Source of the DNA: an uncultured Arcobacter sp.
GTDB taxonomy: Bacteria; Campylobacterota; Campylobacteria; Campylobacterales; Arcobacteraceae
Length of the DNA: 44,944 nucleotides
Assembly (NCBI GenBank): GCA_937860115.1
Contig: CALMBI010000091.1
Coordinates: 1 to 44,944 of the forward strand
Direction: 5' to 3'
The position numbers and the translations under genes are program-made. The notes under the pieces were generated by a model. The model ran no database searches. It was given only the letters and a program-made list of their open reading frames with translations, and was not told the DNA's origin. Below, piece after piece: positions 7,679-44,778 of this stretch (its first letter is position 1; every line of letters begins with the position of its first letter).

Positions 7679-8996
7679 ATATATCAAAACAATTTTTTTT
7701 GGATATATTATAATAATCTTTTTAGGAGCGATTGGTTTATCTTTACCCATCAGTCGGATTGGAGAACTCTCCTTTATTGATGCTTTGTTTACATCAGCTT
7801 CAGCAACTTGTGTGACTGGACTTATTGTTACGAGTACCTCTGAAAATTTTACATTTTTTGGTGAAGCAATTATCCTTTTTCTTATACAAATTGGTGGAAT
7901 CGGATATATGACTTTGGTAACACTTTTTTTTCTATTTTTGAAAGATGACTTACAGATTGAAGAAAAAAGAGCAATGAAAGAAGCCCTTGATTTGCCTGAT
8001 ATGAAAGCAACATCGAGTTTTATTAAAAAAGTGATCCTTTTTGTACTCCTTATAGAAGTGGTTGGAGCTTTTATTTTAACATTTCGATTTAGTAGTGATT
8101 TTGCATTCGATGAAGCTCTTTGGCATGGTATTTTTCACTCTATTTCTGCTTTTAATAATGCTGGTTTTTCTCTTTTTACAGATAGTATGATGGGATATAA
8201 AAGTGATTTTATAATTTTAAGTGCTTTAATGATTTTAATTGTTCTTGGAGGTATTGGTTATTTTGTTTTGATAGAAATTGGTAGTAAAACGAAGAAAGTT
8301 CATAATTTTTCAGTGCATACAAAAATTATGATTTATGGAACACTTTTTTTGATTTTATTTGGTTTTTTACTTTTTCTATCTATTGAATGGAACAATCCAA
8401 AAACTTTAGGTGAGTTTTCTTTATACGAAAAGATACTCAATAGTTTATTTTTATCGGTTAACTTTAGAACAAGCGGATTTAATAGTATCGATTTTGCTGG
8501 ATTAAAAGATTCTTCTTTATTTTTTTCTACATTTTTTATGATGATTGGAGCAGGAATCGGTGGAACAGCTGGCGGGATAAAAATTACAACTTTTGCAATT
8601 TTACTTGTGGCAGTTGTTTACACCTTAAGACAAGATAATCAAGAGCCAAATATCTTTCAAAGAACAATTGAACAAAAACTTATCAATAAAGCATTAGCAA
8701 TTATTGTAAGTGCTTCTTTACTTGTTTTAATAGCAACCTTGATTTTAGTAGAAACACAAAATTTGCCATTTATGAAGATTTTATTTGAAGTTGTTTCTGC
8801 TTTTGCTACTGTTGGAGTATCTACTGGAAATGGAGGAATTTTAAGTTTTTCTGCACACTTTGATAGCTTTGGAAAAAGTATCATAATTTTACTTATGTTA
8901 GCTGGAAGAATTGGTGTTTTCGCCTTTGGATTTATCTTGGTGGGAAAAGCAAAAACAAAATATATCAAATATCCAAAAGGGAGGATTTTAATTTGA
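7668..8996 (+). CDS. ktrB: K+ transporter membrane subunit, TrkH/KtrB family
   Basis: The ORF is open from 7653. ATG 7668 is preferred because GAGGA lies 9 nt upstream. Selectivity-filter-like glycine motifs VTGL, GGIGY, NAGFS, TSGFN and GVSTGN are present in a multi-TM protein. Confidence 0.85.
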   Translation: MGYKYIKTIFFGYIIIIFLGAIGLSLPISRIGELSFIDALFTSASATCVTGLIVTSTSENFTFFGEAIILFLIQIGGIGYMTLVTLFFLFLKDDLQIEEKRAMKEALDLPDMKATSSFIKKVILFVLLIEVVGAFILTFRFSSDFAFDEALWHGIFHSISAFNNAGFSLFTDSMMGYKSDFIILSALMILIVLGGIGYFVLIEIGSKTKKVHNFSVHTKIMIYGTLFLILFGFLLFLSIEWNNPKTLGEFSLYEKILNSLFLSVNFRTSGFNSIDFAGLKDSSLFFSTFFMMIGAGIGGTAGGIKITTFAILLVAVVYTLRQDNQEPNIFQRTIEQKLINKALAIIVSASLLVLIATLILVETQNLPFMKILFEVVSAFATVGVSTGNGGILSFSAHFDSFGKSIIILLMLAGRIGVFAFGFILVGKAKTKYIKYPKGRILI

Positions 8997-39402: not shown

Positions 39403-40194
39403 TCACTTCGTAATAAGTGGTTCACCTTTGATTTTTTTTGGTTCTGCTTTATCTTTTAATTTATATCCAAATCCATAAATATTTTCAATTATATCATATG
39501 GAATTTTGTGTCTTAGTCTTTTGATAATTGATTTAATACTATCGATTGAGAAATCTTTCTCTTTTTTTCCATTTGTTTCATTGTTGAGAAGTTTAAAAAT
39601 ATCTAAACTTGAAAACGTATGTTGTGGATTATTGATCAATAGATCCATAATCATAATTTGATTATAGGAAAGTTTGATATTATCCCCTTTAAATTTGAGC
39701 TCTTTTGTATCTTTATGCCAAATAAGTTCCTCATCAAGTGTGTAGTTATTGTCAATTGGATCTTTTGCTACATGTTGCAACAATGTATCCATTAAAACTT
39801 CAGTGATTTGTTTTGTCGTAAAAGGTTTTTGGATAAATTTAGAGATACCAAGATTGATAAAACTTATAAGATCATCTGTTTCACTATATGCTGAAGTTAC
39901 GATGATTTTTTGATCCCTATTGATACTAAAAATTTTTTTTACCAAAGCTACACCGTCTAGGTTTGGCATTTTTATATCTGTGATCACAAGGTCATAATAT
40001 AAGTTTTTTGTTTTTTTATAATCTTCATATTTTTTGAGTGCCTCTAACCCATCATTTGCTACATCTATCCTTTTGAAAAAGTTATTAAAAAGGATTTTTG
40101 ATTTGTTTTGTAATACAAGATCATCCTCAACGTAGAGTACTTTTAACTTTTTTGAAATGTGATACATTTTTTTCATTTTATTTAAATCAAGCAT
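39403..40194 (-). CDS. Response regulator, REC + winged-helix (OmpR-like) DNA-binding domain
   Basis: 263 aa. LYVEDD, VITDIKMPNLDG and KPF in the REC domain. The C-terminus LSYNQIMIMDLL...IKRLRHKI...GFGYKL is Trans_reg_C-like. AAGGA lies upstream of ATG 40194. Confidence 0.85.
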   Translation of the reverse strand: MLDLNKMKKMYHISKKLKVLYVEDDLVLQNKSKILFNNFFKRIDVANDGLEALKKYEDYKKTKNLYYDLVITDIKMPNLDGVALVKKIFSINRDQKIIVTSAYSETDDLISFINLGISKFIQKPFTTKQITEVLMDTLLQHVAKDPIDNNYTLDEELIWHKDTKELKFKGDNIKLSYNQIMIMDLLINNPQHTFSSLDIFKLLNNETNGKKEKDFSIDSIKSIIKRLRHKIPYDIIENIYGFGYKLKDKAEPKKIKGEPLITK

Positions 40195-40346: not shown

Positions 40347-40811
40347 ATGAATATAAAAATCGATTTAAAAGAGATGATAGAAACCGCTAAAAAGATAAAC
40401 CTTCTTTATGTTGAAGATGATGAGATAGTTAGAACTAAGACTGGTTCATTGTTACGATTATTGTTTCAAAATATTGATATAGCACAAAATGGAGAGGAGG
40501 GGCTCATGAAGTATCAATAAAACTTTGGAACTAATAAGCATTTTAATCTAATAATAACCGATATTAATATGCCAAAAATGGATGGGTTTGAATTAAGTAA
40601 AAAAGTATTATCATTAGAGCCTAATCAAAAAATAGTTATAGTTACAGCATATAATGATGCAGATAAATTAGAAGCATTAGAGAATTTAGGATTAGAAAAC
40701 TTTCTTCATAAACCGCTCAAAGAGGATCAGCTTTTGGAGATTATGAACAAAGTGGTACACCAAATTGTGCTAAATAATTCTAAAGAGCAGGAAAACAAAT
40801 TATGGATATGA
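40347..40811 (+). pseudogene. Single-domain (CheY-like) receiver gene interrupted by an in-frame TAA at 40518-40520
   Basis: The ORF pieces 40347-40520 (MNIKIDL..LLYVEDDE..GLMKYQ*) and 40569-40811 (MPKMDGFEL...KPL...) are in the same frame. Reading through the stop gives ...NFGTNKHFNLIITDINMPKMDG, colinear with the intact paralog at 40802-41227. Confidence 0.8.
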
Positions 40812-41227
40812 ATAACCTCAAGGATGTTGTAGGAAAATATAAAGTACTCTATGTAGAAGATGATGAGACTGTACTTTCAAAAGTCTCAAGGATGTTTAGA
40901 GAGATTTTTAAAGTTGTAGATACAGCGACCAATGGTATTGAAGGGTTAGAACAATATAAAAAATACTATCAACAAAATAATTTTCATTATGATATAGTTA
41001 TTACTGATATTAATATGCCAAAAATGAATGGTGTGGAGCTCTCTAAAGAGATTAGAAAAATTTCTCCTCATCAAGAGATTTTTATTATCTCAGCTCATAA
41101 TGAATCAAATATCTTACAAGAACTTATCAACATAGGTGTAAGTACTTTTATCCACAAACCTATCAAATTTGATGACCTCTTAAAATCAATTCTTAAAATT
41201 CATAGTTCTTTGCAAACCACAAAATAA
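40802..41227 (+). CDS. Single-domain CheY-like response regulator
   Basis: 141 aa. VLYVEDDE, IVITDINMPKMNG, ISAH and IHKPI are the REC hallmarks. There is no output domain. Confidence 0.9.
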   Translation: MDMNNLKDVVGKYKVLYVEDDETVLSKVSRMFREIFKVVDTATNGIEGLEQYKKYYQQNNFHYDIVITDINMPKMNGVELSKEIRKISPHQEIFIISAHNESNILQELINIGVSTFIHKPIKFDDLLKSILKIHSSLQTTK

Positions 41228-41251: not shown

Positions 41252-43564
41252 ATGAAGCTCAATCATGAGATTGATGGGGTACTTAATGGTTATGACTCTT
41301 TAGTTATGGCTTCAAGAACAGATGCGCAAGGTGTGATCACATATGTGAGTAAGGCTTTTGAAAAAATTTCAGGGTATACAAAAGAGGAGCTCATCGGTAA
41401 AAACCATAGCATTATGAGACATGAAGACTCAAAAGATGATTTTTTTAACTACCTTTGGAGCACGATAAAAAGTGGAAAGATCTGGAAAGGTAAAATAAAA
41501 AATAAAGCAAAAAATGGTACAAGTAATTGGACAAAAATGTCTATTGCTCCATATTATGATAAAGATGGAAATCTTTTAGGATATAACTTTATTAGAGAAG
41601 ATATCACAGCAAAAGAAAAAGCAAAAGAGCTCCATAAAAAGGTAAATATTCTTTTAAGAAATGCAATAGATGGCTATCTCCTTATTGATCAAAATATGAT
41701 TATTGAGACTGGATATTCAGATATTTGTATCCAATTTTTCAAAAAACATTATCTTAATGGATTAAAAATAACAGATGTTTTGTTTCATGAAAATGATCTC
41801 AAAGGAAAGAATACTTTTGCTCAAGGGATCGAAGCTATTTTTGGAACAGATGATAAATTTAAAAAAGAGGTATTGTCTTCGTTATTGCCAACAGAAACTG
41901 CCGTGAATGATAAGCATTTTAAAATCTCATATAAAATAATAGATGATTTTCATATTATGGTTATCATTAGAGATGTCTCAGAAGAGATCTATTTACAAAA
42001 CCAATTGGAAGAACAAAACAAAAGACAAAAAATGATTATTCAGATTGTCTCAAATATTAATGATTTTGTTGAGCTAAAAAATTCTTTTGAGTTTTTTATA
42101 GAAAAAATCTATAAAGAGAATAGTTTTAATGAGATAGATCTTCGTGACAATGGTAGAGATATTTTAAGAGAACTTCATACGTTTAAAGGAATTTTTGCAC
42201 AATTATTTTTATGTGAAACACCTGATGCGATACACCATTTAGAAACAAAAGTGATTGATCTTATCAGAACAAAACAAAATGAAGCGGTTGTAGATGATAG
42301 TGAAAATATTAAAACAAAATTTGCTTATGATATGGAAACATTTGATCAAATTATTGGAAGGCATTTTATCACCGAACAACTCAAAATTGAACAAAAATTT
42401 GAAGTGTGTACAGATCTTAAACAACAACTTACCGATCTTATTTTAAATCCAATCAATACTAATTATAAAGTGCAATCGATCATCTCTGAACTTGATTATC
42501 TCTCATATATTTCGATTTATGAAATATTAGAAAAACATGTTGAATATGTGCAGTATTTAGCCGAATTCCTTCATAAACCAGTTGCTTCACTTAAAATTTA
42601 TGGGGATAAATATGTATTGGTTCCACCAGAATTTAGAAATTTTTTGAAAAATCTATTGCATCTTTATAAAAATTCAGTAGATCATGGGATCGAAGATGTT
42701 GATACAATTACAGGTCAAAATGGACATTATGAACTCAATATTGTATGTGAATATTTTCACAAAGATAACTTTTTTTATCTTAATATTTATGATGATGGGA
42801 TAGGTGTTGATACGCAAAAACTTCTCAACAAAGCCTTAGAAAAAGAGCTTATCACTTTTGAAGAGAGTCAAAAATTGACTGATGTTGAAAAACTCGAACT
42901 TCTTTTTTTAGATGGTTTAAGTACAAAAGATGTTGCAAATGAGATCTCAGGTCGTGGTGTAGGGATGGCTGCTTTAAAACAATCATGTCAAGAGCTTGGA
43001 GGTGTTGTAGAGGTTGCGAATAAACCAAATGAGGGGCTTTCATTTTCATTTAAAATCCCAATAAGATCAAAAATAAATTATGACCAAAGTAATCAAAATC
43101 TTGTTGAATTGATGTCTATTTTGGAAGTTGTTTCAAAAAAAATAACACTCTTTTTTGATAAAGATCTAAAGATGAATATTTTAGATGTGAGATATGTAAA
43201 TGACGTAAATCTTGATGATAAGGTCCATTCTATTATTCATCTAAATGATAAAGTAACTATCTCATTTAGTTACACAAAAAATATTATCAAAAAGTATAAA
43301 GATATCTTTTTGGCTGATCTATTTTTAACAGAAAAAGATTTTGAAGATTCTATTTTTGATCTTTCAAATGAGATATTAAATACTTTAGTAGGGCTATCGA
43401 TTCAAGATCTAGAAACAAAAATGGATACACTACTCTCTATTCCACAAACGATCACAAATGAAGAATTACATCAATTGATGAATGAAAAATCAACGAAAAT
43501 TGTAACAATGCTCATACAAACAGATTATGGAAATCTTGTGTGTAAAACAATTCAAAAAGTGTAA
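41252..43564 (+). CDS. Hybrid CheA-class kinase: Aer-type PAS, PAS-like, HPt, CheA-type catalytic core, CheX-like C-terminal domain
   Basis: 770 aa. aa 20-120: NHSIMRHED..YLWSTIKSGKIW.GKIKNKAKNG (Aer PAS pattern). H309 lies in ELHTFKG (HPt). aa 440-605: LLHLYKNSVDHGIED...DDGIGVD...LFLDGLSTKD..ISGRGVGMAALK...GLSFSFKIP (CheA P4 signature). aa 650-735: HSIIHLNDKVTISFSY...D703-LSN-E707-IL-N710...P731 (CheC/CheX D-x3-E-x2-N motif). Confidence 0.8.
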   Translation: MKLNHEIDGVLNGYDSLVMASRTDAQGVITYVSKAFEKISGYTKEELIGKNHSIMRHEDSKDDFFNYLWSTIKSGKIWKGKIKNKAKNGTSNWTKMSIAPYYDKDGNLLGYNFIREDITAKEKAKELHKKVNILLRNAIDGYLLIDQNMIIETGYSDICIQFFKKHYLNGLKITDVLFHENDLKGKNTFAQGIEAIFGTDDKFKKEVLSSLLPTETAVNDKHFKISYKIIDDFHIMVIIRDVSEEIYLQNQLEEQNKRQKMIIQIVSNINDFVELKNSFEFFIEKIYKENSFNEIDLRDNGRDILRELHTFKGIFAQLFLCETPDAIHHLETKVIDLIRTKQNEAVVDDSENIKTKFAYDMETFDQIIGRHFITEQLKIEQKFEVCTDLKQQLTDLILNPINTNYKVQSIISELDYLSYISIYEILEKHVEYVQYLAEFLHKPVASLKIYGDKYVLVPPEFRNFLKNLLHLYKNSVDHGIEDVDTITGQNGHYELNIVCEYFHKDNFFYLNIYDDGIGVDTQKLLNKALEKELITFEESQKLTDVEKLELLFLDGLSTKDVANEISGRGVGMAALKQSCQELGGVVEVANKPNEGLSFSFKIPIRSKINYDQSNQNLVELMSILEVVSKKITLFFDKDLKMNILDVRYVNDVNLDDKVHSIIHLNDKVTISFSYTKNIIKKYKDIFLADLFLTEKDFEDSIFDLSNEILNTLVGLSIQDLETKMDTLLSIPQTITNEELHQLMNEKSTKIVTMLIQTDYGNLVCKTIQKV

Positions 43565-43590: not shown

Positions 43591-44778
43591 ATGAATGAAG
43601 ATCAATTAATAGATAAATATACAAGTGATAGAGAGTTGCTAGAACTTATTACAGAAGCAACTCAAGATGGTTTATGGGATTGGGATGTGACTAATAACAA
43701 TGTGTTTTTTTCAACTCATTGGAAAAAAATGATTGGTTATGAAGATGATGAAATAGAGAATAATTTCAATGAATGGCTTAAACGTGTTCATCCAGATGAT
43801 GTAGAAAAAGCTATGGAGTGTGTTGAAAATTATGTCAATGGAAGAATCGATACATATGAAAATGTTCATAGATTGCAACATAAAGATGGACATTGGGTAT
43901 GGGTGCTTGATAGAGGAAAAGGGAAATTTGTAAATGGAAAAGTAATAAGAATGGTTGGTTTCCATACTGATATTACTGAACAAAAAGATCTTGAATATCA
44001 ATTAGAACTGAAAGTACATGATGAGATCGAAAAAAACAAACAAAAAGATGATATGCTCAAACAACAAAGTGGTCTAGCTCAAATGGGTGAAATGATCTCT
44101 ATGATTGCTCATCAGTGGAGACAACCATTAGCTTCTATCGCTTCTATTGCAGTGACAATCAAAATCAAAATGGCACTAGCTTCATTTGATACTTCAAATC
44201 AAAAAGGTTTAGATGAATTTATGGAATATCTCAATACTGAAATAGATGATATTGAAAATCTAGTACAGATGCTTACAAGCACTATTGATGATTTTAGAAA
44301 TTTTTATAAGCCAGATAAAGAGGTAGCTCATATCACTATAGAATCTCCAATAAAAAAAGTTTTATCTATCTTAAAACCACAAATAGAACAACAAATTGTA
44401 GAGGTGTCATTGGAATATTTATCTACTAGAACAATAGATATTTATGAAAATGAGATTTTGCAGGTTATTTTAAATATCGTAAAAAATGCACTTGATAACT
44501 TTAAAGAAAGAGATACACAAAATCCAAGGATCCATATCAAAACAGAAGATATTTTTGGAAAAGTGATTGTATCAATTTGTGATAATGGTGGTGGGATCAG
44601 TGAAGATATTATAGGATTTATTTTTGATCCATATTTTTCTACAAAAGATAACAAAAATGGTACAGGACTGGGCCTTTATATGTCAAAAACAATTATCGAA
44701 CAACACCATAAAGGGAAACTCAGTGTCCAAAATAAAAACGATGGTGTATGTTTTCATATAATTTTGGAAAAACAATGA
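43591..44778 (+). CDS. PAS-domain sensor histidine kinase (cytoplasmic)
   Basis: 395 aa. PAS domain (GLWDWDV...WLKRVHPDD...GHWVWVLDRG), H-box MISMIAHQWRQPL, N-box IVKNALDN and G-boxes DNGGGI and GTGLGLYMS. Confidence 0.9.
   Translation: MNEDQLIDKYTSDRELLELITEATQDGLWDWDVTNNNVFFSTHWKKMIGYEDDEIENNFNEWLKRVHPDDVEKAMECVENYVNGRIDTYENVHRLQHKDGHWVWVLDRGKGKFVNGKVIRMVGFHTDITEQKDLEYQLELKVHDEIEKNKQKDDMLKQQSGLAQMGEMISMIAHQWRQPLASIASIAVTIKIKMALASFDTSNQKGLDEFMEYLNTEIDDIENLVQMLTSTIDDFRNFYKPDKEVAHITIESPIKKVLSILKPQIEQQIVEVSLEYLSTRTIDIYENEILQVILNIVKNALDNFKERDTQNPRIHIKTEDIFGKVIVSICDNGGGISEDIIGFIFDPYFSTKDNKNGTGLGLYMSKTIIEQHHKGKLSVQNKNDGVCFHIILEKQ

What the first reader, a model, noticed from the sequence alone, without database searches (positions are those of the whole stretch)
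41252..43564. CheA-class kinase with an Aer-type PAS sensor and a CheX-like phosphatase domain in place of the CheW-like P5 domain
Seen in the translation: (1) An N-terminal PAS (aa ~20-120) has the pattern of the FAD-binding Aer PAS: H-S-I-M-R56-H57-E-D59, Trp in YLWSTIK, and KNKAKNG..W. E. coli Aer has HNMVRHPDMP..DMWFTLK..KNRRKNGDHYW. (2) A second PAS-like segment spans aa ~125-245. (3) An HPt-like helix has His309 in RELHTFKG (codon 42176-42178). (4) A catalytic core is diagnostic of CheA rather than of classical HisKA kinases: LLHLYKNSVDHGIE, DDGIGVD, LFLDGLSTKD and SGRGVGMAALK. (5) The last ~150 aa do not look like a CheW/P5 domain. They read like a CheX/CheC-family fold (HSIIHLNDKVTISFSY...) with an intact D703-x3-E707-x2-N710 (43358-43381) and Pro731 20 residues later. 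The family consensus is D/S-x3-E-x2-N-x22-P, where the E and N are the catalytic residues that dephosphorylate CheY-P. Inference: one cytoplasmic polypeptide would sense redox/FAD directly, autophosphorylate on an HPt, feed single-domain receivers encoded just upstream, and also carry its own CheY-P phosphatase. It would need no MCP or CheW coupling. I do not know of a characterised kinase-CheX fusion, so this is the best candidate for an undescribed module in the window.
Basis: partly seen in the sequence, partly recalled or inferred. Interest (0 to 1): 0.8.

Follow-up and report, generated by a model that had tools for sequence, protein, structure and literature searches.

The report
CheA-type sensor kinase fused to CheX
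This gene encodes a cytoplasmic sensor kinase with the catalytic core of the chemotaxis kinase CheA, its own flavin-type PAS sensor, and a CheX-type phosphatase domain where CheA has its receptor-coupling domain; it is a fused, nonsense-split copy of a widespread kinase + CheX + receiver module that I could not find described.

Summary
- Aa 15-125 is a PAS domain closest to the FAD-binding PAS domains of MmoS and E. coli Aer.
- Aa ~141-241 folds as a second PAS.
- His309 sits in an HPt-like helix and is invariant.
- Aa ~420-606 is a CheA P4 ATPase (family profile vs CheA structures 1e-47; classical kinases no better than 1e-5).
- Aa 612-770 is a CheX fold (model pLDDT 93; the top 33 Foldseek hits are all CheX/CheC/FliY/FliM).

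No CheW/P5 domain is present.

- The ORF is the downstream five-sixths of a gene. All close orthologs encode a ~921-aa REC-PAS-PAS-HPt-P3-P4-CheX protein. Here one in-frame TAA (CAA in the nearest ortholog) detaches the REC. The neighbouring REC gene also carries an in-frame TAA.
- The fusion is not a one-off. Of 87 related kinase genes, 21 have CheX fused and 48 have a separate CheX gene just downstream. 72 have an adjacent single-domain REC.

The catalytic Asn is invariant (71/71) and the Glu is always acidic.

Phosphatase function is inferred, not shown. Kinase-CheC/CheX fusions were already noted in Leptospira CheAs, but those retain P5.

The parts
40347..40811 (+). REC1: single-domain receiver gene interrupted by an in-frame TAA (40518-40520) before the acceptor Asp. 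It overlaps the next gene by 10 nt.
   Evidence: translation MKYQ*NFGT...IITDINMP. The ortholog in L001 (7552-8001, 149 aa) is intact and 61% identical.
40802..41227 (+). REC2: a 141-aa receiver ORF that is the detached N-terminal REC domain of the hybrid kinase. Acceptor Asp69 is at 41006-41008.
   Evidence: Pfam Response_reg 4e-25. It is 83% identical to the N-terminal REC of the fused ortholog P0002 and in the same frame as 41252.
41225..41227 (+). In-frame TAA that splits the gene. The nearest ortholog has CAA (Gln) here.
41252..43564 (+). 770-aa ORF with the architecture PAS-PAS-HPt-P3-P4-CheX.
41294..41626 (+). PAS1 (aa 15-125), of the Aer/MmoS FAD-binding type.
41672..41974 (+). PAS2 (aa ~141-241). 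It has a PAS fold with no Pfam hit, and it marks the start of the core shared by the whole family.
42056..42355 (+). HPt-like helical bundle (aa ~269-368), with the phospho-accepting His309 at 42176-42178.
   Evidence: (weak CheA P1 hits).
42365..42505 (+). P3-like helical hairpin (aa ~372-418), the presumed dimerisation element.
   Evidence: profile aligns from the second P3 helix of T. maritima CheA; two helices. Pfam H-kinase_dim is not detected.
42515..43069 (+). CheA-type P4 ATP-binding domain (aa ~422-606). It carries the N box (H470/N474/H478), G1 (D514/G516/G518) and G2 (G567/G569/G571).
43085..43561 (+). CheX-fold domain (aa 612-770). Catalytic-type E707 is at 43370-43372 and N710 at 43379-43381. 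G714 and P731 (43442-43444) are also conserved.
39403..40194 (-). Divergently transcribed OmpR-type response regulator. It is a conserved neighbour, and it is not shown to belong to the pathway.
   Evidence: Synteny with L001/L002.
43591..44778 (+). Downstream PAS_3 + HATPase_c kinase of 395 aa. It is a conserved neighbour, and it is not shown to belong to the pathway.
   Evidence: Synteny with L001/L002.

Best explanation
The ORF is the larger piece of a nonsense-split hybrid sensor kinase. The kinase belongs to a widespread family of CheW/P5-less, CheA-type (HPt-containing) histidine kinases. These kinases carry their own sensor domains and work with a dedicated CheX-type phosphatase and a CheY-like single-domain receiver.

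Proposed mechanism; every step is inferred unless marked otherwise.
1. PAS1, an Aer/MmoS-type PAS that probably binds FAD, reports redox state.
2. The signal passes through PAS2 and a long helix to an HPt-P3-P4 core.
3. P4 binds ATP and phosphorylates His309.
4. The phosphoryl group moves to the Asp of a receiver. The candidates are the protein's own, here detached, REC2 and/or the neighbouring REC1.
5. The C-terminal CheX domain uses E707/N710 to speed hydrolysis of REC~P.

In this scheme the CheX domain supplies the phosphatase activity that CheA-type kinases lack, unlike HisKA kinases. It sits exactly where CheA has its receptor-coupling P5 domain.

Shown here: the domain identities, the absence of P5, conservation of the catalytic residues, and the conserved association of kinase, CheX and REC, whether fused or unfused.
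For: Domain identities.

Conservation: in 25 orthologs N710 and G714 are invariant, and E707 and P731 are present in at least 90%. In 22 fused plus 49 stand-alone CheX sequences from related loci, Asn is 71/71, Glu/Asp 71/71, Gly 70/71 and Pro 68/71.

Gene fusion/fission evidence: the unfused locus L003 encodes a 547-aa kinase core (35% identical to window aa 141-604, E 5e-83), then a REC, then a 152-aa CheX. The same arrangement is found in L005 and L006.

Survey: of 87 family kinase genes, 21 have CheX fused, 48 have a separate CheX within 1.5 kb downstream, and 72 have an adjacent single-domain REC. A rough neighbour-joining tree needs at least 5 fusion/fission changes.

The CheX subfamily has 485 representative clusters. 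About two-thirds of those listed are stand-alone and one-third are C-terminal domains of 400-1100-aa proteins.

Beyond the family, the nearest kinases are bona fide CheAs.

Precedents: the bifunctional kinase-phosphatase CheA3 of R. sphaeroides (PMC2924250, PMC6829392) and the CheA-CheC/CheX fusions noted in PMC10542144.
Against: There is no biochemical evidence for any step.

The Pfam CheX score is borderline (24.1 bits on the whole protein, 27.6 on the domain alone, cutoff 27). Sequence identity to solved CheX structures is only 9-16%.

The textbook D/S four residues before the Glu is not conserved, and the N-to-P spacing is 21 residues rather than 23.

In this window the gene is split by a stop codon and REC1 is broken, so the system may be non-functional here.

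Window REC1 resembles the kinases' N-terminal RECs rather than the usual downstream module REC, so the phosphatase substrate in this lineage is uncertain.

The HPt assignment rests on weak direct scores plus transitive homology.
Confidence: 0.7

Rival explanations
1. The CheX-like domain does not act as a phosphatase. Instead it is a docking or regulatory domain, comparable to P2 or the FliM middle domain. It would bind the receiver, or REC~P, to raise its local concentration or to feed back on the kinase.
For: The CheC/CheX/FliM fold includes non-catalytic CheY-P binders such as FliM. FliM structures appear among the Foldseek hits (ranks 15-33). The D/S residue of the textbook motif is variable.
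Against: The Glu/Asp and Asn equivalent to the catalytic pair of CheX are conserved in 71/71 sequences from several phyla. The best structural and sequence matches are CheX proteins, not FliM.
Confidence: 0.15
2. In this particular genome the locus is decaying. The two in-frame TAA codons are real inactivating mutations and the 770-aa product is not made or not used.
For: Two in-frame TAA codons lie within 710 nt, in adjacent genes that are intact in the orthologous locus L001/L002. The sequence directly upstream of the ATG at 41252 shows, by my reading, no strong Shine-Dalgarno match.
Against: The window protein keeps every residue that is invariant in the family, including H309, the N/G1/G2 boxes, E707 and N710. 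The ATG at 41252 is a conserved Met only 8 codons after the stop. Natural REC-less PAS-core-CheX proteins of 753-780 aa exist (P0039, L025, L028, L029), as do natural 'REC gene upstream + core-CheX' arrangements (L039, L040). The split could therefore be a viable gene fission. A sequencing error cannot be excluded.
Confidence: 0.25
3. It is a genuine chemotaxis CheA that still couples to chemoreceptor arrays, with the CheX domain as an add-on, as in the Leptospira CheA-CheX fusions.
For: The P4 domain is closest to CheA. An MCP gene lies about 5.6 kb downstream in the orthologous locus L001.
Against: No CheW/P5 domain is detected by Pfam or by profile comparison. In unfused relatives the kinase ends immediately after P4. 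Sensor domains such as PAS, HAMP and 7TMR-DISM are fused directly to the kinase. No cheW gene is among the conserved neighbours.
Confidence: 0.03
4. It is an ordinary HisKA-type sensor kinase whose C-terminal tail resembles CheX only by chance.
For: Of the kinase core, Pfam detects only HATPase_c.
Against: The profile scores 1e-47 against CheA P4 and 1e-5 or worse against HisKA kinases. No HisKA H-box is present. The CheX fold model has pLDDT 93 and its top 33 fold hits are all from the CheC-like superfamily.
Confidence: 0.01

Closest known systems
CheA (chemosensory histidine kinase, class II / HPK9), e.g. T. maritima CheA (1B3Q, 4XIV) and E. coli CheA
   Same: It has the CheA-type P4 ATP-binding domain with the characteristic N, G1 and G2 boxes. 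The phospho-accepting His lies in a separate HPt-like helical domain with the CheA-like motif R-x-L-H-T-[FY]-K-G. A P3-like helical hairpin precedes P4.
   Different: It has no P5/CheW-like domain and no P2. It carries its own PAS sensor domains, which CheA lacks by definition. A CheX domain occupies the position of P5, and orthologs have an N-terminal REC.
CheX / CheC / FliY phosphatase family (B. burgdorferi CheX-CheY3 complex 3HZH, T. maritima CheX 1XKO, Desulfovibrio CheX 3HM4)
   Same: It has the same fold (TM 0.55-0.70). The E-x2-N-x3-G motif lies on the long helix and aligns with the catalytic Glu/Asn of CheX. A conserved Pro follows downstream.
   Different: Here the domain is covalently fused to a kinase. 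Sequence identity is only about 9-16%. The D/S at position -4 is not conserved, and the N-to-P spacing is 21 residues rather than 23. It belongs to a distinct subfamily that travels with P5-less kinases rather than with che operons.
CheA-CheC/CheX fusions in F1-class CheAs of Leptospirae (PMC10542144) and rare CheA-lineage fusions to CheC/CheX (bioRxiv 10.1101/2022.05.07.491035)
   Same: A CheA-type kinase and a CheX-family domain sit in one polypeptide, and a dual kinase/phosphatase role has been proposed.
   Different: Those proteins retain all four CheA core domains, including CheW/P5, and have no sensor domain. In the present protein CheX replaces P5 and PAS sensors are built in.
R. sphaeroides CheA3 (bifunctional kinase-phosphatase; PMC2924250, PMC6829392)
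   Same: One CheA-family protein both delivers phosphoryl groups to a CheY and specifically dephosphorylates it.
   Different: The CheA3 phosphatase region is not a CheX fold. CheA3 has P5 and works inside a chemoreceptor cluster together with CheA4.
Aer / MmoS / NifL FAD-binding PAS sensors
   Same: PAS1 is most similar to MmoS PAS-A and to the Aer PAS. It keeps the residues equivalent to Aer R57, H58, D60, W70 and N85.
   Different: The output is a CheA-type kinase in the same polypeptide, not an MCP signalling domain (Aer), a HisKA kinase (MmoS) or NifA binding (NifL). The window copy reads RHEDSK where most orthologs and Aer have RHPDMP.

Membership tests
CheA (four core domains as defined in PMC10542144) | Hpt (P1) phosphotransfer domain with a conserved His | tested here: met
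   H309 is invariant in LHTFKG and lies mid-helix in the AF2 model. It aligns to CheA His48. The profile gives weak hits to CheA P1 structures 2LD6/1TQG at E 0.03-0.07. Distant family members that align over the full core score above the Pfam Hpt cutoff at the same position. Pfam Hpt does not hit the window protein itself.
CheA (four core domains as defined in PMC10542144) | Dimerisation domain (P3, H-kinase_dim) | tested here: inconclusive
   Pfam PF02895 is not detected. The family profile aligns from the second P3 helix of T. maritima CheA. The AF2 model shows a two-helix hairpin before P4.
CheA (four core domains as defined in PMC10542144) | CheA-type histidine-kinase ATP-binding domain (P4) | tested here: met
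   The profile scores 1e-47 against CheA P4 structures and 1e-5 or worse against other kinases. NCBIfam CheA models match aa 423-606.
CheA (four core domains as defined in PMC10542144) | CheW-like (P5) receptor-coupling domain | tested here: not met
   There is no PF01584 hit at E<=1. hhalign of the C-terminal profile against E. coli P5 and CheW finds nothing meaningful. The C-terminal domain has a CheX fold instead. The protein is therefore CheA-like but not a CheA.
CheX/CheC/FliY (CheC-like clan) phosphatases | CheX fold | tested here: met
   The AF2 model has pLDDT 92.9. The top 33 Foldseek PDB hits all belong to this superfamily, with CheX entries best.
CheX/CheC/FliY (CheC-like clan) phosphatases | Catalytic E-x2-N on the active-site helix, part of the D/S-x3-E-x2-N-x22-P motif | tested here: met
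   E707 and N710 align to the CheX E/N. Asn is 71/71 and Glu/Asp 71/71 in family CheX sequences. The D/S position is variable, and Pro lies at +21.
CheX/CheC/FliY (CheC-like clan) phosphatases | Score above the Pfam PF13690 gathering threshold | tested here: inconclusive
   The score is 24.1 bits for the whole protein (below the 27-bit cutoff) and 27.6 bits for the isolated domain (just above). Relatives P0041, P0124 and L037 score 33-39 bits.
CheX/CheC/FliY (CheC-like clan) phosphatases | Acceleration of CheY~P / REC~P dephosphorylation | not testable with these tools
   This needs a biochemical assay.
Aer-type FAD-binding PAS | Sequence membership in the Aer/MmoS/NifL PAS subgroup, with the FAD-contact residues | tested here: met
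   The top PDB hits are MmoS 3EWK (1e-26) and Aer 8DIK (6e-22). R56, H57, D59, W69 and N84 are present and mostly conserved in orthologs. The role of these residues in Aer is taken from my own knowledge of the Aer mutational literature.
Aer-type FAD-binding PAS | Bound FAD and redox-dependent signalling | not testable with these tools
   This needs a flavin spectrum of purified aa 1-125.
Class I (HisKA/DHp) sensor histidine kinases | HisKA/DHp domain with an H-box directly upstream of HATPase_c | tested here: not met
   No HisKA-family hit was found. Similarity to HisKA kinases is limited to the G2 region of the ATPase.
Hybrid histidine kinase (REC fused in the same polypeptide) | REC domain in the same ORF as the kinase | tested here: not met
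   Orthologs carry an N-terminal REC. In the window a TAA at 41225-41227 separates the two.

The most novel reading that the evidence does not exclude
The P5-less CheA-type kinase + CheX + CheY-like REC triad is a distinct and so far undescribed class of two-component pathway. It would be a self-contained, array-independent 'mini-Che' system. A sensor-fused class II kinase obligatorily recruits an auxiliary phosphatase, and the components have been repeatedly fused and split. Inputs range from FAD-type PAS domains to a sensory [NiFe]-hydrogenase. The class might resemble the pre-CheW ancestor of chemosensory systems.
Probability: 0.35. Interest if true: 0.7.

Novelty: new variant of a known kind. 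Interest (0 to 1): 0.55.

Why it matters
CheA is usually defined as a kinase that has no sensor of its own and depends on CheW/P5 coupling to chemoreceptor arrays. This family shows the CheA catalytic core used as a direct sensor kinase, with PAS, HAMP or 7TMR-DISM inputs.

The family almost always travels with a CheX-type phosphatase and a CheY-like receiver. That pattern fits the idea that HPt-type kinases lack intrinsic phosphatase activity and must import one.

The family offers a simple soluble system for studying three things without chemoreceptor arrays: control of a CheA-type kinase, CheX specificity, and evolution by fusion and fission. It also bears on how chemosensory pathways evolved from two-component systems.

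For this genome specifically, the two in-frame stops suggest either recent decay or a natural gene-fission event.

Tried and rejected
- **Pfam on the window protein.** Hpt, H-kinase_dim and CheW give no hits. HPt had to be supported indirectly. Only 2 of 16 family members hit Pfam Hpt at E<0.1.
- **hhalign against E. coli CheA.** The C-terminal profile shows no similarity to P5 or CheW. The HPt region against CheA P1 gives the right register but a weak score (E 0.009).
- **Foldseek on the aa 124-448 model.** It returned only PAS hits, so the HPt and P3 folds could not be confirmed by fold search.
- **Stop-codon recoding as an explanation for the in-frame TAAs.** Rejected. The rest of the window is densely coded with normal stops, and only these two places look like a split gene.
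- **Word-index search with the CheX profile.** It gave only 4 new proteins. The exhaustive representative search was needed.
- **Clustering of neighbouring ORFs across 80 loci.** No fourth universally conserved component emerged. It found only generic REC proteins and, in one lineage, hydrogenase genes.
- **The listing of cluster members.** It gave no source names.
- **Literature searches.** None found a description of a P5-less CheA-type kinase with CheX. One search was wasted, because 'P5' matched p53 papers.
- **Absence from the held library is not proof of novelty.**
Full report
**The observation.** The ORF 41252..43564 (+) encodes 770 aa and ends in TAA. Pfam finds a PAS domain at aa 23-120 (PAS_9 3.6e-14, PAS_3 4.2e-13), HATPase_c at aa 468-605 (1.3e-10) and CheX PF13690 at aa 670-749. 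The CheX score is 24.1 bits on the whole protein and 27.6 bits on the C-terminal 164 aa alone, against a cutoff of 27. There are no hits to Hpt, H-kinase_dim or CheW at E<=1. NCBIfam CheA equivalog models match only aa 423-606, which is the P4 region, and score far below their full-length cutoffs.

**PAS domains.** The closest solved sequences to aa 15-125 are two FAD-binding PAS domains: MmoS PAS-A (3EWK, 1e-26) and the E. coli Aer PAS (8DIK, 6e-22). Next come NifL and the LOV domains. In the Aer alignment, window R56, H57, D59, W69 and N84 match Aer R57, H58, D60, W70 and N85. I know these Aer residues from the mutational literature as important for FAD binding and signalling; that point rests on my own knowledge. 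Among 25 orthologs the counts are R56 21/25, H57 21/25, D59 23/25, W69 24/25 and N84 24/25. The window and its three closest relatives read RHED where most orthologs read RHPDMP. An AlphaFold2 model of aa 124-448 was built on 26 family sequences (mean pLDDT 85.5). It shows an alpha/beta module at aa ~141-241, and its Foldseek hits are PAS domains such as FixL. The 'second PAS-like segment' is therefore real.

**HPt and catalytic core.** His309 in RELHTFKG is invariant in 25 orthologs and lies in the middle of a helix within an all-helical stretch. Direct HPt scores are weak:
- The family profile hits the T. maritima CheA P1 structures 2LD6 and 1TQG at E 0.03-0.07.
- Only 2 of 16 family members hit Pfam Hpt at E<0.1.
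- hhalign places H309 on E. coli CheA His48 in the correct register, at E 0.009.

The assignment is strengthened by transitive homology. More distant family members align over 96-98% of the core profile (P0283, P0309, P0349, P0387, and the Desulfurivibrio kinase in L072). These score above the Pfam Hpt threshold (26-39 bits), and their RxLHT[LV]KG His falls in the same column as H309.

The catalytic domain is unambiguous. The profile of aa 245-611 matches CheA P3(second helix)+P4 structures (4XIV, 1B3Q, 1I5D) at about 1e-47. The best classical kinase reaches only 8.5e-06, and only over the G2 region. Beyond the family itself, the nearest proteins in the 5.8-billion-protein database are bona fide CheAs with Hpt, H-kinase_dim and CheW domains.

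**The C-terminal domain.** A profile of aa 612-770 from 21 orthologs finds CheX or CheC-like proteins as its five best PDB sequence hits: 3HM4 at 1.3e-3, then 3HZH, 3IIC, 3H2D and 3H4Y. In these alignments E707-x2-N710 aligns with the catalytic E-x2-N of CheX. The AF2 model of this domain has pLDDT 92.9. Its top 33 Foldseek hits in the PDB are all CheX, CheC, FliY or FliM, with CheX structures best at TM 0.55-0.70. Hit 34 drops to probability 0.07. There is no similarity to E. coli P5 or CheW. In the orthologs, N710 and G714 are invariant and E707 and P731 are present in at least 90%. D703 is not conserved.

All close homologs (P0002-P0016, 40-77% identity) are about 921 aa and carry an extra N-terminal REC domain. 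In the window the 141-aa REC ORF 40802..41227 is in the same frame as 41252. The two are separated by a single TAA at 41225-41227, followed by 8 codons. The closest ortholog, L001, has CAA (Gln) at that position within an otherwise near-identical stretch: AAA CAA AAA GAT GAA AAA ACA GAT GAG. The 'single-domain receiver just upstream' is therefore the detached N-terminal domain of the same ancestral gene.

The gene before it (REC1, 40347..40811) also carries an in-frame TAA, at 40518-40520, before its acceptor Asp. Its ortholog in L001/L002 is an intact 149-aa protein. Nothing else in the window suggests stop-codon recoding. With these tools I cannot tell whether the two stops are real mutations or sequencing errors. 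Three observations argue against simple decay:
- The window protein keeps every family-invariant residue.
- Natural REC-less PAS-core-CheX proteins of 753-780 aa exist (P0039, L025, L028, L029).
- Natural 'REC gene + core-CheX gene' arrangements exist (L039, L040).

A subfamily of REC-PAS-core proteins of about 740 aa ends right after P4. In three independent loci these kinases are followed by a 121-124-aa REC gene and a 152-159-aa CheX gene (L003, L005, L006/7). The L003 kinase is 35% identical to window aa 141-604 (E 5e-83). Its stand-alone CheX (P0124) matches the window CheX profile at 2e-20 and carries the motif DEILNTIVGLS.

A scan of GTDB species representatives found 219 relatives. I analysed the 80 best loci together with the loci fetched earlier, using family profiles. 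Of 87 kinase genes:
- 21 have CheX fused at the C-terminus.
- 48 have a separate CheX gene within 1.5 kb downstream.
- 4 sit too close to a contig end to tell.
- 14 have no detected CheX.
- 72 have an adjacent single-domain REC.
- 29 have an N-terminal REC.

The hosts are mainly Campylobacterota (Arcobacteraceae, Sulfurimonas, Sulfuricurvum, Sulfurospirillum) and Desulfobacterota. There are scattered Pseudomonadota, Spirochaetota and Acidobacteriota MAGs. N-terminal inputs vary: PAS, HAMP, 7TMR-DISM and transmembrane segments. On a rough neighbour-joining tree of the core, the fused state needs at least 5 changes and the root is reconstructed as unfused. One locus has a CheX-REC fusion instead (L037).

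The CheX subfamily itself comprises 485 representative clusters at E<=1e-3. Roughly two-thirds of the listed ones are stand-alone proteins of 150-190 aa, and one-third are C-terminal domains of 400-1119-aa proteins. Across 22 fused and 49 stand-alone copies, Asn is 71/71, Glu/Asp 71/71 (58 E, 13 D), Gly 70/71 and Pro 68/71. Clustering of neighbouring ORFs found no fourth universally conserved partner and no cheW.

**Mechanism.** The repeated fusion, fission and tight adjacency of kinase, CheX and REC argue that the three act on one another. So does the strict conservation of the CheX catalytic pair. The most economical model has five steps.
1. The sensor domains set the kinase activity. In this protein the sensor is an Aer-type, probably FAD-binding, PAS.
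2. P4 phosphorylates His309.
3. The phosphoryl group passes to a CheY-like REC.
4. The CheX domain hydrolyses REC~P.
5. The result is fast signal termination.

CheA-type kinases, unlike HisKA kinases, have no intrinsic phosphatase activity toward their regulators. This is established knowledge of the two kinase classes. An obligatory auxiliary phosphatase therefore makes sense. R. sphaeroides CheA3 is a precedent for a CheA-family protein with both activities (PMC2924250, PMC6829392).

In the window lineage the phosphatase substrate is uncertain. The usual downstream module REC is absent. REC1 is a paralog of the kinases' N-terminal RECs and is broken here. That leaves the detached REC2 as the only intact candidate nearby. 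The output of the single-domain REC is unknown.

**Comparison with what is known.** The protein works like a CheA + CheX + CheY pathway but is not a CheA. The survey of CheA architectures treats the CheW domain as one of four invariable core domains and CheA as sensor-less (PMC10542144). This protein fails both criteria. That paper reports CheA-CheC/CheX fusions in Leptospirae and proposes dual kinase/phosphatase function. A survey of CheW-like domains likewise mentions rare CheA-lineage fusions to CheC/CheX. Kinase-CheX fusion as such is therefore not new. What differs here:
- CheX takes the place of P5.
- Sensor domains are built in.
- The association extends to a large family of unfused operons.

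Six literature searches found no description of that family. Absence from the held library is not proof of novelty.

**Verdict.** It needs three corrections: the gene is nonsense-split, the arrangement is a widespread module rather than a unique fusion, and there are prior bioinformatic reports of CheA-CheX fusions. I rate it a new variant of a known kind, of moderate-to-good interest (0.55). All functional steps still need biochemistry.

Noticed in passing
window 40347-40811 (stop at 40518-40520): The single-domain REC gene upstream carries an in-frame TAA before its acceptor Asp (…MKYQ*NFGTNKHFNLIITDINMP…). The orthologous gene in L001/L002 is intact at 149 aa. Together with the TAA at 41225-41227, that makes two in-frame stops within about 710 nt, in adjacent REC-coding sequences. 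No similar split genes are seen elsewhere in the window.
   Followed up: partly
L048, L049, L053, L072 and about 8 other Desulfurivibrionaceae/Desulfobacterota loci, e.g. L072:2214-3200 and L049:474-2192: [NiFe]-hydrogenase small-subunit (PF14720/PF01058) and large-subunit (PF00374) genes lie directly upstream of the P5-less CheA-type kinase | CheX | REC module. This resembles a HupUV/HoxBC-type sensory hydrogenase wired to a CheA-type kinase rather than a HisKA-type one.
   Followed up: partly
L037:5791-6702: A 304-aa CheX-REC fusion protein (Pfam CheX 9e-10, Response_reg 1e-30) sits downstream of a family kinase. This is a third way of fusing the same three parts.
   Followed up: partly
L018 (3143-5359 and 5935-8736), L027 (3-1169 and 1560-4313): Two paralogous kinase modules lie in tandem on one contig, one with CheX fused and one without. 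Several MAGs (e.g. JBNLDA01, CAZHJR01, CAZLZQ01) carry two or three family kinases on different contigs.
   Followed up: no
L031:3536-6334, L033:3536-6322: These REC-core proteins of about 930 aa are long enough to carry a C-terminal domain, but the CheX profile does not detect one at E<1e-4. The tail may be a diverged CheX or a different domain.
   Followed up: no
window 39403-40194 (-) and 43591-44778 (+): An OmpR-type response regulator (divergent) and a PAS_3-HATPase_c kinase (downstream) flank the locus. Both are syntenic in L001/L002, where three more sensor kinases and an MCP follow. The locus is a signalling-gene island. Whether these proteins cross-talk with the CheA-like kinase, for example by phosphorylating its N-terminal REC, is unknown.
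   Followed up: no
window 40802-40811: REC1 and REC2 overlap by 10 nt (…AAATTATGGATATGA…). In L001 the REC gene and the 922-aa kinase gene share the ATGA overlap at 8001. The genes therefore appear to form one translationally coupled operon.
   Followed up: no
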